A stretch of 64,000 nucleotides of DNA. It comes from the human T2T-CHM13v2.0 reference genome, Homo sapiens. The first letter of the stretch is position 1, and each line of letters opens with the position of its first letter. The notes beneath the pieces were generated by a model that was given only the letters and a program-made list of their open reading frames with translations, was not told the DNA's origin and ran no database searches. The position numbers and the translations under genes were made by a program. Shown one piece after another: positions 2,509 through 10,164 of the stretch. The stretch lies in the NCBI RefSeq assembly GCF_009914755.1, contig NC_060947.1; one strand, written 5' to 3'.

Positions 2509-3128
2509 CTCAATATGAATGAGTAAGTGGTCTTGAGACAACTGAGAGTGAAACAAAAACATTTTTATAGGCCACTAATTAGAAGCCTAGTCTTTAAAGC
2601 CACCACTACGTAGCTACTCATGTGTTCTGAAATTACCTCATCATTGTGTCTAGGAAATAAAGGGTATGTGTGTTGAGGGGTGGGGAACTTGTTCTTGGAA
2701 TGATTCATGGATAAGTGTCTATTGATGTTGTTGATACCATTAATGGCTTCAGTTTCATGATCTTTTCATGTCATCTTGCCAACACAACAATAATGAGCAA
2801 ATATCTACCTAGATTTCCAAAGTCCTCATATGGTTTTCTATTACTCTATCAAATGGAGCCCTATAACCTATTCAAACAGAAGGATTTAACTCTATACTCC
2901 TCTTTCTAGACTTTTTGACTCTTATTATTTGCCTGTTAGGACCTGTTCCTCATATCTTCATCATCCCTGGTTCCTTAGTTCTTGCTTTGGGTTCCTTGGC
3001 TTTGATAACCTGTTTTGGACATGTTTCTCTATCCTGATGCTGACGCTTTCCTCACCTCCTAGCCCATAAGGGGAATCCACCTTTCCATTAACCAACACAC
3101 CAGGAGAATGACATCTGGCAGTGTAAAA

Positions 3129-3612
3129 TGTAATTGCCCAACAGGTTTGTCCTGCACTTTGCATGGACAAAATCAATTCACTGAGACTGTGGCATTGCAG
3201 TAAAGAAAGATTTTAGGCCAGGTGCGGTGGCTCATGGCTGTAATCCCAGCATTTTGGGAGGCCGAGCTGGGTGGATCACGAGGTCAGGCAATCGAGACCA
3301 TCCTGGCTAACATGGTGAAACCCTGCCTCTACTAAAAATACACAAAAAATTAGCCTGGCGTGGTGGCGGGCACCCGTCATCCCAGTTACTCAGGAGGCTG
3401 AGGCAGGAGAATGACGTGAACCCGGGAGGTGGAGCTTGCAGTGAACCAAGATCGCGCCACTGCGCTCCAGCCTGGGTGACAGAGCGAGACTCCGTCTCAA
3501 AAAAAAAAAAAAAAAAAAAAAGAAAGATTTTAACTGACATGAGGCTGGCCATGATAGAGATGGAGTTATCACTCAAATCAGTCTCCCTGAAGGCTCAGAG
3601 GTTAGGGTTTTT
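3129..3612 (-). mobile_element. Partial LTR8-like LTR (duplicated 3' portion, contains AluY)
   Basis: Same sequence as 9693-10164 of the complete LTR8-like element. Confidence 0.75.
3216..3521 (+). mobile_element. AluY-like SINE (copy 1)
   Basis: gatcacgaggtcagg, ctggctaaca, gtgaacccgggaggtggagcttgcag diagnostics; poly(A); TSD aaagaaagatttta. Confidence 0.93.
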
Positions 3613-4023
3613 TTTCACTTGCGTCCGTGTGAAGAGACCACCAAACAGGCTTTGTGTGAGCAATAAAGCTGTTTATTTCACCTGGGTGCAGGTGGGCTGA
3701 GTCCGAAAAGAGTCAGCGAAGGGAGATGGGGGTGGGGCCGTTTCATAGGATTTGGGTAGATAAAGGAAAATTACAGTCAAAGGGGGGTTGTTCTCTGGCA
3801 GGCAGAGTAGGGGTCACAGGGTGCTCAGTTGGGGAGCTTTTTGAGCCAGGATGAGCCAGGAGAAGGAATTTCACAAGACAATGTCATCAGTTAAGGAGGA
3901 ACAGGCCATTTTCACTTCTTTTGTGGTGGAATGTCATCAGTTAAGGCAGGAACCAGCCATCTGGATGTGTACGTGCAGGTCACAGGGGATATGATGGCTT
4001 AGCTTGGGCTCAGAGGCCTGACA
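3613..4023 (-). mobile_element. HERV-H 3' LTR (LTR7)
   Basis: Minus strand TGTCAGGCCTCTGAGCCCAAGCTAAGCC...GGACGCAAGTGAAA; AATAAA at 3672-3677 (minus). Confidence 0.96.
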
Positions 4024-4036
4024 TTCCTGTCTTCTT
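4024..4036 (-). other. Polypurine tract of HERV-H
   Basis: Minus strand AAGAAGACAGGAA immediately before the 3' LTR. Confidence 0.85.
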
Positions 4037-5789
4037 ATATTAATAAGAAAAATAAAACAAAATAGTGGTAAAGTGTTGGGACGGTGAAAATTTTGGGGGG
4101 TGGTATGGAGAGATAATGGGCGATGTTTTTCAGGGCTGCTTTGAACAGGATTAGGGGCGGCATGGGAACTTAGAGTGGGAGTGGGAGAGATTAAGCTGAA
4201 GGAAGATTTTGTGGTAAGGGGTGATATTGTGGGACTGTTAGAAGAAACATTTGTCATTTAGAATTATTGGTGATGGCCTGGATAGTTTTGTATGAATTGA
4301 AAAACTAAACAGAATAAGAGAAGGAGAAAAACAGGTATTAAAGGTCTAAGAATTGGGAGGACCTAGGACATCTAATTAGAGAGTGCCTAAGGAGGCTCAG
4401 CATAGTCCTGTCAGCAAAGATTATTTATTTACTTCAAGAGTTAAGAGTGGTAGTTTGAGGATAGCACCAGGAGATATCAGCTGTGATGGCTTGGAGAAAC
4501 AGTGTAAACCGGCAGTGTAAACAAGAGCAGGGCACGTATGAGTAGTTGAGAACGGTGAATAGGAGTATGACTAGACAGAAGATAGTAGGGATGACAAGTT
4601 TTTTGGGGCACAGTCCAAGTTGGTCTGGTGTCTGGAATGAGACTGGGGCCTAATAAAAAGGAGCATCTATACAGGAGCTCAAATGGGCTGTACCCTGTAG
4701 CATTCTGAGGACAGGTCTGACTTCTGAGAAGGGAAAGTGGTAAAAGTATTGTCCAGTCCTTTTTAAGTTGGTGGCTGAGCTTGGTGAGGTGTGTTTTTAA
4801 AAGACCTTTAGTCCGTTCTACTTTTCCTGAAGACGGAGGACCGTAAGGGATATAAAGGTTTCACTGAATACTAATAGCCTGAAAAATTGCTTGGCTGATT
4901 TGACTAATAAAGGCTGGTCTGTTATCAGACTGTATAGAGGTGGGAAGGCTAAACTGAGGAATTATGTCTGACAGAAGGGAAGAAATGACTGCGGTGGCCT
5001 TCTCAGACCTTGTAGGAAAGGCCTGTACTTATCTAGTGAAAGTGTCTACTTAGACTAAGAGGTATTTTAGTTATCTGACTCGGGGCATGTTGAGTAAAGC
5101 TAATTTGCCAGTCCTGGGTGGGGGCAAATCCTGGAGCTTGATGTGTAGGGAAGGGAGGGGGCCTGAATAATCCCTGAGGAGTAGTAGAATAGCAGATGGA
5201 ACACTGAGAAGTTATTTCCTTGAGGATAGATTTCCATGATGGAAAGAAAATGAGAGGTTCTAAGAGGCGGGCTAGTGGCTTGTACTATAGCATAGCCTGC
5301 CTTTGCTGGTGTGTGGCGATTAGGCCTGGTGGAACTGCCATCAATAAATCAAGCGTGATCAGGGTGAGGAACAGGAAAGTAGGAAATATGGGGAAATGGG
5401 GTGAATGTCAGGTGGTTCAAAGAGATACAGTCATGGGGGTCAGGTGTGGTATCAGGAATAATGTGGGAGGCCAGATTGAAGTCCGGGCCAGGAACAATGG
5501 TAATTGTGGGACTTAACAAAGAGTGAGTACAGCTGAAGGAGCCGGGGAGCAGTAAGTATATGCGTCAGGTGTGAGGAAGAAAATAGATTTTGGAAGTTAT
5601 GAGAAATGTAGAGAGTGAGTTGAACATAGTTTATGATTTTGAGGGCCTCTAAAAGTATTAAAGCAGCGGCAGCCACTGCACGCAGACATGAGGGCTAGGC
5701 TAAAACAGTAAGGTCAAGTTGTTTGGACAGAAAGGCTACAGGGAGTGGTCCTGGCTCTTGTGTAAGAATTCTGACCGCACTAACCATGC

Positions 5790-6404
5790 CTAGGAAGGAA
5801 AGGAGTTGTTGTTTTGTAAGGGATTGAGGTTTGGGAGATTAATGGAGATGATCGGCAGGGAGAGCACGTGAGTTTTTATGAGAATTATGCTGAGATAGGC
5901 AACAGATGAGGAAGAAATTTGGGCTTGACTGAAGCAATGGGGGCTGTCTGTGAAGCTTTGCGGCAGTACAGCCCAGGTAATTTGCTGAGCCTGATGGGTG
6001 TCACGGTCAGTCCAAGTGAAAGCGAAGAGAGGCTGGGATGACGGGTGCAAAGGAATAGTAAAGAAAGCATATTTGAGATCCAGAACAGAATAATGGATTG
6101 TGGAGGGAGGCATTGAGGATAGGAGAGTACATGGGTTTGGCACCATGGGGTGGATAGGCAAAACAATTTGGCTGATAAGGCGCAGATTCTGAACTAACCT
6201 GTAAGCCTTGTCTGGTTTTAGGACAGGTAAAATGGGGGAATGGTAAGGAGAGTTTATGGGCCTTAAAAGGCCATGCTGTAGCAGGCGAGTGATAACAGGC
6301 TTTAATCCTTTCAAAGCATGCTGTGGGATGGGATATTGGCATTGATCGGGGTAAGGGTGATTAGGTTTTAATGAGATGGTAAGGGGTGCATGATCGGTCA
6401 CCAA
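5790..6404 (-). pseudogene. pol: HERV-H pol remnant (RT N-terminal part)
   Basis: ORF with PYHSPILPVLKP, YRLVQNLR, YSVLDLKYAFFTIPL, WAVLPQSFTDSP; breaks off before the YxDD motif. Confidence 0.9.
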
Positions 6405-8771: not shown

Positions 8772-8894
8772 ATTTAAAATTGGTGAGATGTTCCTTGGGC
8801 TGGTCGGTCTGAGGACCTGAGGCCGTAGGTGGATCTTTCTCATGGAGCAAAGAACAGGAGGACAGGGGATTGATCTCCCAAGGGAGGTCCCCCG

Positions 8895-8912
8895 ATCTGA
8901 GTCACAGCACCA
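8895..8912 (-). other. Primer-binding site, tRNA-His
   Basis: Minus strand TGGTGCTGTGACTCAGAT; 16/18 match to TGGTGCCGTGACTCGGAT, both changes at CpGs. Confidence 0.93.
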
Positions 8913-8914
8913 AA

Positions 8915-9315
8915 TTTCATGTGCGTCCATGTGAAGAGACCACCAAACAGGCTTTGTGTGAATAATAAAGCTTTTAATCACCTGGGTGCAGGCGGGCTGA
9001 GTCTGAAAAGAGAGTCAGCAAAGGGAGATGGGTTGGGGCCATTTTATAGGATTTGGGTAGGTAAAGGAAAAAGGGGGGTTGTTCTCTGGCGGGCAGGAGT
9101 GGGGGTCACAAGGTACTCAGTGGGGGAGCTTTTGAGCCAGGATGAGCCAGGAGAAGGAATTTCACAAGACAATGTCATCAGTTAAGGCAGGAACAGGCTA
9201 TTTTCACTTCTTTTGTGGTGGAATGTCATCAGTTAAGGCAGGAACCGGCGATCTGGATGTGTACGTGCAAATCACAGGGGATATGATGGCTTAGCTTGGG
9301 CTCAGAGGCCTGACA
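8915..9315 (-). mobile_element. HERV-H 5' LTR (LTR7), promoter pointing to lower coordinates
   Basis: Adjacent to PBS; TATAAAA at 9042-9048 (minus); ATTAAA at 8973-8978 (minus). Confidence 0.96.
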
Positions 9316-10164
9316 GTTTCATGATCTTTTCATGTCATCTTGCCAACACAACAATAATGAGCAAATATCTACCTAGATTTCCAGAGTCCTCATATGGTTT
9401 TCTATTACTCTATCAAATGGAGCCCTATAACCTATTCAAACAGAAGGATTTAACTCTATACTCCTCTTTCTAGACTTTTTGACTCTTATTATTTGCCTGT
9501 TAGGACCTGTTCCTCATATCTTCATCATCCCTGGTTCCTTAGTTCTTGCTTTGGGTTCCTTGGCTTTGATAACCTGTTTTGGACATGTTTCTCTATCCTG
9601 ATGCTGCCACTTTCCTCACCTCCTAGCCCATAAGGAGAATCCACCTTTCCATTAACCAACACACCAGGAGAATGACATCTGGCAGTGTAAAATGTAATTG
9701 CCCAACAGGTTTGTCCTGCACTTTGCATGGACAAAATCAATTCACTGAGACTGTGGCATTGCAGTAAAGAAAGATTTTAGGCCAGGTGCGGTGGCTCACG
9801 GCTGTAATCCTAGCACTTTGGGAGGTCAAGGTGGGTGGATCACGAGGTCAGGCGATCGAGATCATCCTGGCTAACATGGTGAAACCCCATCTCTACTAAA
9901 AGTACACAAAAAATTAGCCAGGCGTGGTGGCAGGCACCCGTCATCCCAGTTACTCAGGAGGCTGAGGCAGGAGAATGACGTGAACCCAGGAGGTGGAGCT
10001 TGCAGTGAGCCGAAATGGTGCCACTGCACTCCAGCCTGGGTGACAGAGTAAGACTCTGTCTCAAAAAAAAAAAGAAAGATTTTAACTGACATGAGGCTGG
10101 CCATGTTGGAGATGGAGTTATCACTCAAATCAGTCTCCCTGAAGGCTCAGAGGTTAGGGTTTTT
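9316..10164 (+). repeat. Right copy (849 bp) of host-DNA duplication flanking HERV-H
   Basis: Begins immediately after LTR end ...cctgaca; aligns with 2752-3612; length difference is the Alu poly(A). Confidence 0.97.

What the first reader, a model, noticed from the sequence alone, without database searches (positions are those of the whole stretch)
2752..10164. HERV-H provirus flanked by a giant (~850-860 bp) target-site duplication
Seen: host sequence 2752-3612 ends at the first base of the 3' LTR (gttagggttttt|tttca). The same sequence restarts at the first base after the 5' LTR (cctgaca|gtttcatg, 9316-10164) and then continues into the rest of the LTR8. There is no 4-6 bp TSD. The base pair step before the left copy is also 'ca' (2750-2751), matching the LTR end. 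Known: retroviral integrases make 4-6 bp TSDs; long TSDs have been reported for a few HERV-K loci, and large host duplications arise from aberrant one-ended integration of exogenous retroviruses. Inference: this is a germline fossil of such an event, possibly favoured by the non-canonical LTR7 U5 end (..TGAAA rather than ..CA). I do not know of this being described for HERV-H.
Basis: partly seen in the sequence, partly recalled or inferred. Interest (0 to 1): 0.85.

Follow-up and report, generated by a model that had tools for sequence, protein, structure and literature searches.

The report
HERV-H provirus with 861-bp flanking duplication
A fossil retrovirus (HERV-H) on the human X chromosome is flanked by two copies of about 860 bases of host DNA instead of the usual 5, most likely the scar of a faulty integration of a kind so far reported only for another virus family (HERV-K).

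Summary
A 5,703-bp LTR7/HERV-H provirus lies on the minus strand (3613-9315). Host segment 2752-3612 recurs at 9316-10164, 95% identical. Each copy abuts an exact LTR terminus and there is no 5-bp target-site duplication (TSD).

In 29 other HERV-H proviruses of the same genome, 25 have a perfect 5-bp TSD. One has 4 bp, three have none, and none has a long junction-abutting repeat.

Six of six dispersed copies of the LTR-like repeat inside the segment run unbroken across the right-hand boundary. That boundary is therefore ancestral.

The strand polarity equals a normal integration stagger stretched to 861 bp. The best reading is an integration-coupled giant TSD (confidence about 0.75). This is known for HERV-K HML-2 (111-250 bp validated, 450 bp putative) and for experimental aberrant HIV/ASLV integration. 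My searches found no description for HERV-H.

That end is the family norm.

Divergence is mosaic: left unique part 0.9%, Alu 8.4%, LTRs 6.0%. This suggests later sequence exchange and makes dating unsafe.

No primate outgroup was available, so the empty site is untested.

The parts
2752..3612 (.). Host segment copy A1 (861 bp). It comprises unique DNA 2752-3124, the start of an LTR-like dispersed repeat 3125-3215, an Alu with poly-A about 3216-3523, and the repeat continued 3524-3612, cut off by the provirus. 'CA' at 2750-2751 is ambiguous with the LTR end.
3613..9315 (-). HERV-H provirus, 5,703 bp: 5' LTR, PBS, gag, pro, partial pol, 3' LTR. No integrase or env family was detected among the 20 ORFs of 60 aa or more that were scanned.
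3613..4023 (-). 3' LTR (LTR7 type, 411 bp). The U5 end ...GTGAAA abuts A1. The U3 start TGTCAGG follows a purine-rich tract at 4024-4036.
8915..9315 (-). 5' LTR (401 bp). The U3 start TGTCAGG abuts A2. The U5 end ...CATGAAA is followed by TT and the primer-binding site.
8895..8912 (-). Primer-binding site, 18 nt beginning TGG, 2 nt after the LTR end. The assignment to tRNA-His is recalled and was not tested.
   Evidence: sequence; the name is from memory
7260..7451 (-). gag fragment with a weak Gag_p30 match (E 0.0019, 18.2 bits, below Pfam's cut-off of 27.4)
6862..7263 (-). gag nucleocapsid zinc knuckle (zf-CCHC, E 6.3e-7)
5790..6422 (-). pol reverse-transcriptase fragment (RVT_1, E 3e-8)
9316..10164 (.). 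Host segment copy A2 (849 bp; the Alu poly-A is 12 nt shorter). It continues without a break into the rest of the LTR-like repeat, to about 10730.
3216..3523 (+). Alu inside A1. Its own target-site duplication (AAGAAAGATTTTA) is present in both A copies, so the Alu predates the duplication. Its counterpart in A2 is 9780-10075.
10165..10730 (.). Remainder of the LTR-like dispersed repeat (flank Y), contiguous with A2

Best explanation
This is a germline fossil of a single aberrant HERV-H integration. The two viral DNA ends became joined to the target 861 bp apart instead of 5 bp apart, and repair copied the stretch between them. That left one copy of the host segment on each side of the provirus.

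Shown:
- The ancestral order was X-A-Y, at least for A|Y.
- The present order is X-A-provirus-A-Y, with both LTR termini complete to the base.
- On the + strand the U3 3' end (...CTGACA) is joined at the left edge of A. On the minus strand the U5 3' end (...GTGAAA) is joined at the right edge of A. This is exactly the 5'-staggered polarity of normal integration, only stretched.

Inferred:
- Either (a) two uncoupled integrase-catalysed half-site strand transfers were followed by strand-displacement fill-in of 861 nt.
- Or (b) integrase inserted only the U5 end. The processed U3 3' end then primed host-polymerase synthesis on nearby host DNA at the 2-nt 'CA' match (2750-2751), and recombination closed the join. 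This is the model given for aberrant HIV/ASLV proviruses.

Afterwards the two host copies and the two LTRs exchanged sequence, by gene conversion or by ectopic exchange with other repeat copies. That produced a mosaic of low- and high-divergence blocks.

The structure has no demonstrated function. Its practical consequence is a pair of ~860-bp direct repeats that could delete the provirus by recombination and mimic an empty site.
For: 1. Junction anatomy. Both LTR ends are exact, no 5-bp TSD is present, and the duplication abuts both ends (up[-849..-1] matches dn[+1..+861] at 95%).

2. Controls in the same genome. Of 29 other HERV-H proviruses with both ends placed, 25 have a perfect 5-bp TSD, 1 has 4 bp, 3 have none, and 0 have a junction-abutting long repeat. 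The set is 19 from the whole-provirus search plus 10 from contig C1. The normal product of this family is therefore a 5-bp TSD with the same termini.

3. A2|Y is ancestral. 6 of 6 dispersed copies of the LTR-like repeat, and one further copy in the window, run unbroken across 10164|10165. The match of A1 to the in-window copy stops exactly at 3612.

4. The Alu inside A carries its own TSD in both copies. Its 24 differences are split evenly between the copies (derived in A1 10, in A2 11, ambiguous 3), as expected for two copies decaying independently for a long time.

5. The Alu and the LTRs are equally diverged. Non-CpG divergence is 4.8% against 4.2% (p=0.84). CpG-context sites that differ are 12/34 against 8/20 (p=0.78). 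This is consistent with one event creating both pairs.

6. Precedent. HML-2 insertions have 111- and 250-bp TSDs validated by empty alleles, and a putative 450-bp one (PMC5488345; Background, section 11 with Table 2, and Discussion read). Aberrant HIV/ASLV integrations have host duplications 'hundreds or thousands of bp long' (PMC5041404, passages).
Against: No outgroup or empty allele could be examined, so the single-copy pre-integration state is inferred and not seen.

Continuity of X|A1 (2751|2752) cannot be tested. That DNA is unique in the genome.

The unique left part of A is much less diverged (4/464 = 0.86%) than the LTRs (24/397 = 6.0%; p=1e-8 under the LTR rate). It is also below the LTR-LTR divergence of all 18 relatives (2.3-8.7%). 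On its face this fits a younger duplication, and I must invoke later gene conversion.

The contrast shrinks when only 'private' non-CpG changes are counted: LTR 9/377 against A-left 3/462, p=0.04.

7 of the 16 non-CpG LTR differences fall on sites that are polymorphic among other HERV-H LTRs. The LTR clock may therefore be inflated by ectopic exchange.

In experimental one-ended integrations the host-joined end is 'often, but not always' truncated. Here both ends are intact, which fits sub-model (a) better than (b) but decides nothing.
Confidence: 0.75

Rival explanations
1. Two steps: an ordinary integration with a 5-bp TSD at one edge of A (TTTTT at the right edge, or GTTTC at the left edge). 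Later a templated insertion or duplication (replication template switching) placed a second copy of A on the other side of the provirus, using the short TSD as microhomology.
For: The unique part of A is far less diverged than the LTRs (0.86% against 6.0%), as a younger duplication would be. Either candidate 5-bp TSD would be absorbed invisibly into the end of the new A copy (worked out from the sequence).
Against: One breakpoint of the later event would have to fall exactly on the last base of an LTR, long after integration, for no mechanistic reason. The return junction (GGGTTTTT|TTTCAC, 8 Ts = 5+3) has no microhomology. The Alu part of A is as diverged as the LTRs, and both copies carry similar numbers of derived changes, so the duplication is not much younger than the provirus.
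Confidence: 0.12
2. A tandem duplication A-A existed first, and the provirus happened to integrate exactly at its junction.
For: It gives the same gross order A-provirus-A. The all-site Alu divergence (8.4%) is slightly above the LTR divergence (6.0%).
Against: It needs integration at 1 particular position out of about 1,700. It also needs loss of the 5-bp TSD that 25 of 29 relatives show. No 5-mer at the junctions fits. The A edges show no microhomology of the kind expected for a tandem duplication: X-end against A-end, and A-start against Y-start, share no terminal base. The unique part of A is less diverged than the LTRs, not more.
Confidence: 0.06
3. Later rearrangement between proviruses or duplicated regions created look-alike flanks. 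This is the 'pseudo-TSD' model discussed for HML-2, or unequal crossing-over between two proviruses flanking A.
For: Kahyo et al. raise this caveat for putative long TSDs (PMC5488345 Discussion). 3 of 29 comparison proviruses lack a TSD, so rearranged HERV-H loci do exist.
Against: Unequal exchange between two proviruses would leave proviruses outside A as well. X and Y are not proviral. A-left has no third copy anywhere in the genome. Both junctions are exact LTR termini.
Confidence: 0.05
4. Assembly artefact: one host segment was written twice.
For: None beyond the general possibility.
Against: The copies differ at 30 substitutions and a 12-nt poly-A length difference, spread along the segment. 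The two LTRs also differ, by 24 substitutions and 6 indels.
Confidence: 0.02

Closest known systems
HERV-K (HML-2) insertions with long target-site duplications: 7p21.2 solo LTR 250 bp, 6p25.2 truncated provirus 111 bp, 21q21.1 provirus putative 450 bp (Kahyo et al. 2017, PMC5488345; Mamedov et al. 2004, known to me only through citations)
   Same: Host direct repeats of hundreds of bp abut the LTR ends in place of the 5-6-bp TSD. The element is a germline-fixed or polymorphic ERV. The authors raise the same caveat about recombination between the long repeats.
   Different: A different retroviral group (gamma-like HERV-H against beta-like HML-2). It is longer (861 bp against 250 validated and 450 putative). 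It is much older, with copies 5% diverged against 0-3 mismatches. It has a mosaic divergence pattern. No empty allele or outgroup has been examined here.
Aberrant one-ended integration of ASLV vectors and of HIV-1 under integrase inhibitors or integrase mutants (Hughes laboratory; PMC5041404)
   Same: Host duplications of hundreds to thousands of bp flank the provirus on the side of the end not inserted by integrase. The published model has the free viral 3' end priming synthesis on nearby host DNA, which fits the 2-nt CA overlap at the U3 junction.
   Different: Those are somatic, experimental events. The aberrant viral end is often truncated or carries extra sequence, whereas here both ends are exact. 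No inhibitor or engineered end defect is involved.
Ordinary HERV-H (LTR7) proviruses of the common ~5.7-kb form
   Same: The same LTR termini (TGTCAGG...GAAA), the same internal layout, 89-94% identity over the full length to 12 other loci, and an LTR-LTR divergence within the family range.
   Different: They carry a 5-bp TSD (25 of 29 examined). This one carries none and has an 861-bp duplication instead.

Membership tests
HERV-H provirus | LTR7-type LTRs at both ends | tested here: met
   The 22-nt U3 start is identical to the start of the LTR7 constructs printed in Carter et al.. It occurs 1,933 times in the genome against 0 for the control. The two LTRs align at 24 substitutions in 397 columns.
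HERV-H provirus | Gamma-like gag-pro-pol between the LTRs, in proviral order | tested here: met
   Gag_p30 (weak, below cut-off), zf-CCHC and RVT_1 lie on the minus strand in 5'-to-3' order. There is 89-94% identity over the full length to 12 other genomic proviruses.
HERV-H provirus | Primer-binding site complementary to tRNA-His | not tested
   An 18-nt PBS beginning TGG lies 2 nt after the 5' LTR. That it matches tRNA-His is recalled. No tRNA sequence was compared.
HERV-H provirus | 5-bp target-site duplication | tested here: not met
   The flanking 5-mers are TTTTT and GTTTC (+ strand). One search finds an exact TSD of 0. 25 of 29 relatives have a perfect 5-bp TSD.
ERV insertion with a long (integration-coupled) TSD | Direct repeats of host DNA that start and end exactly at the two LTR termini | tested here: met
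ERV insertion with a long (integration-coupled) TSD | Strand polarity of the two joins equals the 5' stagger of normal integration | tested here: met
   Read from the junctions. The right flank starts at the left edge of A and the left flank ends at the right edge of A.
ERV insertion with a long (integration-coupled) TSD | The empty (pre-integration) site carries one copy of the segment | not testable with these tools
   No primate outgroup or alternative human haplotype is held. Only A|Y continuity could be shown indirectly (7 related repeat copies).
ERV insertion with a long (integration-coupled) TSD | The flank copies are as diverged as the LTR pair (same age) | tested here: inconclusive
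   The Alu part matches the LTRs (non-CpG 4.8% against 4.2%). The unique part is 0.9%.
One-ended aberrant integration (ASLV/HIV model) | One normal end plus one host-joined end that is often truncated, extended, or joined at microhomology | tested here: inconclusive
   Both ends are intact. The only overlap is 2 nt (CA) at the U3 junction, with a chance of about 1/16.

The most novel reading that the evidence does not exclude
Both intact LTR ends were joined by integrase itself, in the normal polarity but 861 bp apart. That would mean a HERV-H intasome, or two half-intasomes, captured a looped target spanning several nucleosomes. The site may have been favoured because it mimics an LTR-LTR junction: read on the proviral strand, the host reads CATGAAA-C-TG exactly where the U3 end was joined, which is identical to the U5 terminus plus the first two U3 bases. 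If so, this would be the longest natural retroviral TSD on record and a hint that viral-end-like host sequence can misdirect one end.
Probability: 0.2. Interest if true: 0.65.

Novelty: new member of a known kind. Interest (0 to 1): 0.45.

Why it matters
If an outgroup confirms it, long integration-coupled TSDs would extend from HERV-K to a gamma-like family. The known natural size range would nearly double, from 450 bp putative to 861 bp. It would also provide an old, fixed example in which later sequence exchange can be read.

There are three practical lessons:
1. Pipelines that look for 4-6-bp TSDs will mis-score such loci.
2. The ~860-bp direct repeats can delete the provirus and regenerate a look-alike empty site. 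This confounds presence/absence phylogenetics, a caveat already raised for HML-2.
3. Dating by LTR divergence, or by flank divergence, is unreliable here. Adjacent blocks differ up to tenfold in divergence.

Tried and rejected
- Mamedov et al. 2004 is not held. I know it only from citations.
- I looked for a repeat copy spanning the X|A1 boundary. In-window searches and a whole-genome search found none. The only hit is a 73-78-nt, 78-79% similarity of 1635-1717 to 2899-2981, which does not reach the boundary.
I then fetched short flanks of 10 of the 16, and 1,500-bp flanks for the two without a TSD. The other 6 pairs were not examined, and the 1,833 unlisted matches could not be paired.
- Ideas considered and dropped:
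  - Capture of viral DNA by an excised circle of A followed by recombination. This predicts the provirus inside A, not at its edge.
  - Unequal crossing-over at the 7-nt TTTCATG shared by the A start and the LTR end. This gives provirus-provirus or deletion products, not A-provirus-A.
  - Conversion of one Alu copy by a foreign Alu. The derived states alternate between the copies, 10 against 11, with no long runs.
  - One conversion tract covering both low-divergence blocks (9122-9315 plus 9316-9799). Their partners are not contiguous.
- No structure, protein-homology or complex prediction was run. None bears on the question.

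
Full report
**Observation.** The window holds a direct repeat of 2750-3612 and 9314-10164 at 95.1% identity over 863 columns. Between the copies lies a 5,703-bp element with terminal repeats 3613-4023 and 8915-9315. These differ by 24 substitutions in 397 aligned columns, with six indels.

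Read on the minus strand, the right-hand repeat begins TGTCAGG. It ends ...CATGAAA, followed by TT and an 18-nt primer-binding site beginning TGG. The left-hand repeat begins TGTCAGG directly after a purine-rich tract and ends ...GTGAAA. These internal landmarks fix both LTR termini independently of the flanks.

On the + strand the junctions are GGGTTTTT|TTTCAC and CCTGACA|GTTTCATG. The second host copy ends GGGTTTTT|ATGGAC. The first is preceded by GGCTTCA. The host segment is therefore 2752-3612 (861 bp) and 9316-10164 (849 bp, because an Alu poly-A is 12 nt shorter). A 2-bp CA is ambiguous at one edge, and there is no 5-bp duplication.

**Identity of the element.**
- The first 22 nt of the LTR are identical to the start of the LTR7 reporter constructs printed in Carter et al., bioRxiv 10.1101/2021.07.08.451617 (passages seen).
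- By eye the window's LTRs resemble their '7down' (7d1/2) construct more than their LTR7up one. I did not align them.
- The 22-mer occurs 1,933 times in the genome. The reversed control occurs 0 times.
- Of 20 minus-strand ORFs of 60 aa or more, three hit Pfam: Gag_p30 (weak, below cut-off), zf-CCHC and RVT_1, in proviral order.
- Twelve other genomic loci match the full 5.7 kb at 89-94%.
- That the PBS is tRNA-His type, and that 5.7 kb is the common deleted HERV-H form, are recalled and not tested.

**What the host segment is.**
- Its first ~373 nt are unique. Only the two copies here match in the whole genome.
- From about 3125 it enters a dispersed LTR-like repeat beginning TG.
- An Alu sits 91 nt into that repeat, with its own target duplication present in both copies. 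The Alu therefore predates the duplication.
- In 6 of 6 dispersed copies fetched (L003-L008), the repeat runs unbroken across the Alu site and across 10164|10165, on to about 10730. The same holds for one further copy in the window (58293-57842, minus strand).
- The match of the first host copy to the in-window repeat stops exactly at 3612.
- So A2|Y is the ancestral continuity, and A1|provirus is a break inside an older repeat.
- The X|A1 boundary lies in unique DNA and cannot be checked without an outgroup.

**Controls: what HERV-H normally does.** There were two samples.
- The whole-provirus search gave 23 other loci. Both ends could be placed in 19. Of these, 18 have a perfect 5-bp TSD, one (L028) has none, and none has a flank-to-flank repeat touching the junctions (flanks 409-1,500 bp).
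- From the first 100 listed places of the 22-mer (all on contig C1), I saw 16 same-strand pairs 4.3-8.3 kb apart. I fetched short flanks for 10 of the 16.
- Of those 10, seven have a perfect 5-bp TSD (one after moving the projected LTR end by 3 nt), one has 4 bp and two have none. The two without a TSD show no junction-abutting repeat in 1,500-bp flanks.
- In total, of 29 comparators: 25 perfect, 1 of 4 bp, 3 none, 0 long.
- All 29 end ...AAA (...ACA in one) rather than in the canonical CA.

**Mechanism.** On the + strand the U3 3' end is joined at the left edge of A. On the minus strand the U5 3' end is joined at the right edge of A. That is the polarity of the normal 5' stagger, widened from 5 to 861 bp. 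Filling in such a stagger yields exactly A-provirus-A.

Two sub-models fit:
- Two uncoupled integrase joins, followed by strand-displacement repair.
- The one-ended model of the Hughes laboratory. There the free viral 3' end primes synthesis on nearby host DNA and recombination closes the join, giving duplications 'hundreds or thousands of bp long' (PMC5041404, passages).

The 2-nt CA overlap lies at the U3 junction. The U5 junction has none (8 Ts = 5 host + 3 viral). If the event was one-ended, U5 was the integrase-joined end. Both ends are intact, whereas the host-joined end in those experiments is 'often, but not always' truncated.

**Natural precedent.** HML-2 insertions have TSDs of 111 and 250 bp validated by empty alleles, and a putative one of 450 bp. 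Eight of 622 LTR5_Hs sites are flanked by duplicated sequences of more than 10 bp (PMC5488345, Background, section 11 with Table 2, and Discussion).

**Rivals.**
- Integration into the junction of a pre-existing tandem duplication needs one position in about 1,700 and the loss of the TSD.
- A later templated duplication needs a breakpoint exactly on the last LTR base.
- Exchange between two proviruses would leave proviruses outside A, and none is there.
- An assembly artefact is excluded by 30 substitutions between the copies.

None of the first three can be formally excluded without an outgroup.

**Dating is mosaic and unsafe.** A1 against A2:

| Block | Differences | Divergence |
|---|---|---|
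| Left unique part | 4/464 | 0.86% |
| Alu | 24/285 | 8.4% (non-CpG 4.8%) |
| Right part | 2/89 | 2.2% |
| LTR against LTR | 24/397 | 6.0% (non-CpG 4.2%) |

- The Alu and the LTRs agree, both for non-CpG sites (p=0.84) and for CpG-context sites (12/34 against 8/20, p=0.78).
- The Alu's derived states are split 10 against 11, with 3 ambiguous.
- The left unique part is far lower (p=1e-8 under the LTR rate). It is below the LTR-LTR divergence of all 18 relatives (2.3-8.7%, median 5.1%).
- The LTR pair is itself mosaic: 19/206 against 5/192, p=0.006.
- Polarised against 36 other LTRs, the 24 LTR differences split into 9 private, 8 CpG-type and 7 non-CpG differences at sites polymorphic in the family. 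The last group hints at ectopic exchange.
- Counting only private non-CpG changes gives LTR 9/377, Alu 9/251 and A-left 3/462. Alu plus LTR against A-left gives p=0.007.
- My reading is that the duplication is about as old as the provirus, and that 2752-3234 was later homogenised by conversion. A younger duplication is not excluded by these numbers alone.
- With assumed rates of 1.0-1.3e-9 per site per year (an assumption, not a result), the LTR distance gives 24-32 My and A-left gives 3-4 My.
- Carter et al. place 7d1/2-type elements mostly at 9-20 Mya (passage).

**An unexplained coincidence.** The host segment begins G-TTTCATG (2753-2759, and again at 2764-2770). This is identical to the LTR's U5 terminus as read on the + strand (8915-8921). 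On the proviral strand the 5' LTR is therefore preceded by CATGAAA-C, like an LTR-LTR junction. The 7-mer occurs 16 times on both strands in 64 kb. That puts the chance of finding it at that spot at roughly 5e-4, but the test was chosen after the fact. I found no mechanism in which it yields the observed product.

**Novelty.** Four full-text searches found long TSDs described only for HML-2. Thomas et al. 2018 (PMC6298018) and PMC8781664 merely cite those papers (passages). Subscription journals and supplements were not searchable. I rate this a new member of a known kind: a new family, the longest natural example, and old enough to show later sequence exchange. It is not a new kind of event.

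Noticed in passing
window 2753-2759, 2764-2770, 9317-9323, 9328-9334 and 8915-8921: The host sequence at the very start of the duplicated segment (TTTCATG, present twice within 18 nt) is identical to the LTR's U5 terminus read on the + strand. On the proviral strand the 5' LTR is preceded by CATGAAA-C-TG, which mimics an LTR-LTR junction. The motif occurs 16 times in the window on both strands.
   Followed up: partly
window 3613-4023 against 8915-9315: The LTR pair is mosaic: 19 differences in 206 columns on the R-U5 side against 5 in 192 on the U3 side (p=0.006). Seven non-CpG differences fall on sites that are polymorphic among 36 other HERV-H LTRs, including the terminal ...CATGAAA / ...AGTGAAA variants. 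This suggests ectopic exchange with other copies.
   Followed up: partly
L028 (G000:C3:180467292-180474887); G000:C1:54903618-54909275; G000:C1:177395012-177400701: Three of the 29 comparison HERV-H proviruses have no recognisable TSD and no long flanking repeat. They may be recombinant or rearranged loci.
   Followed up: partly
window 8141-8322: A tandem array of a 21/42-nt G-rich unit (about 8.6 copies of 21 nt) lies inside the provirus, between the PBS and gag.
   Followed up: no
window 56887-58293 (minus strand): A second, diverged (62-67%) copy of the same LTR-like dispersed repeat, itself interrupted by an Alu at about 57264-57580.
   Followed up: partly
window 6492-6992: According to the hub's annotation, one of the three RefSeq 'enhancer' elements of the window lies inside the provirus, in the gag-pol region between the zf-CCHC (6862-7263) and RVT_1 (5790-6422) matches. 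It was not examined.
   Followed up: no
window 43-103 and 122-182: A 61-nt direct repeat at 97% identity, spaced 79 nt apart.
   Followed up: no
window 1635-1717 against 2899-2981 (and 9463-9540): A 78% similarity of about 80 nt between the upstream flank and the unique part of the duplicated segment. This is the only other match of that DNA in the genome. Its origin is unknown.
   Followed up: partly
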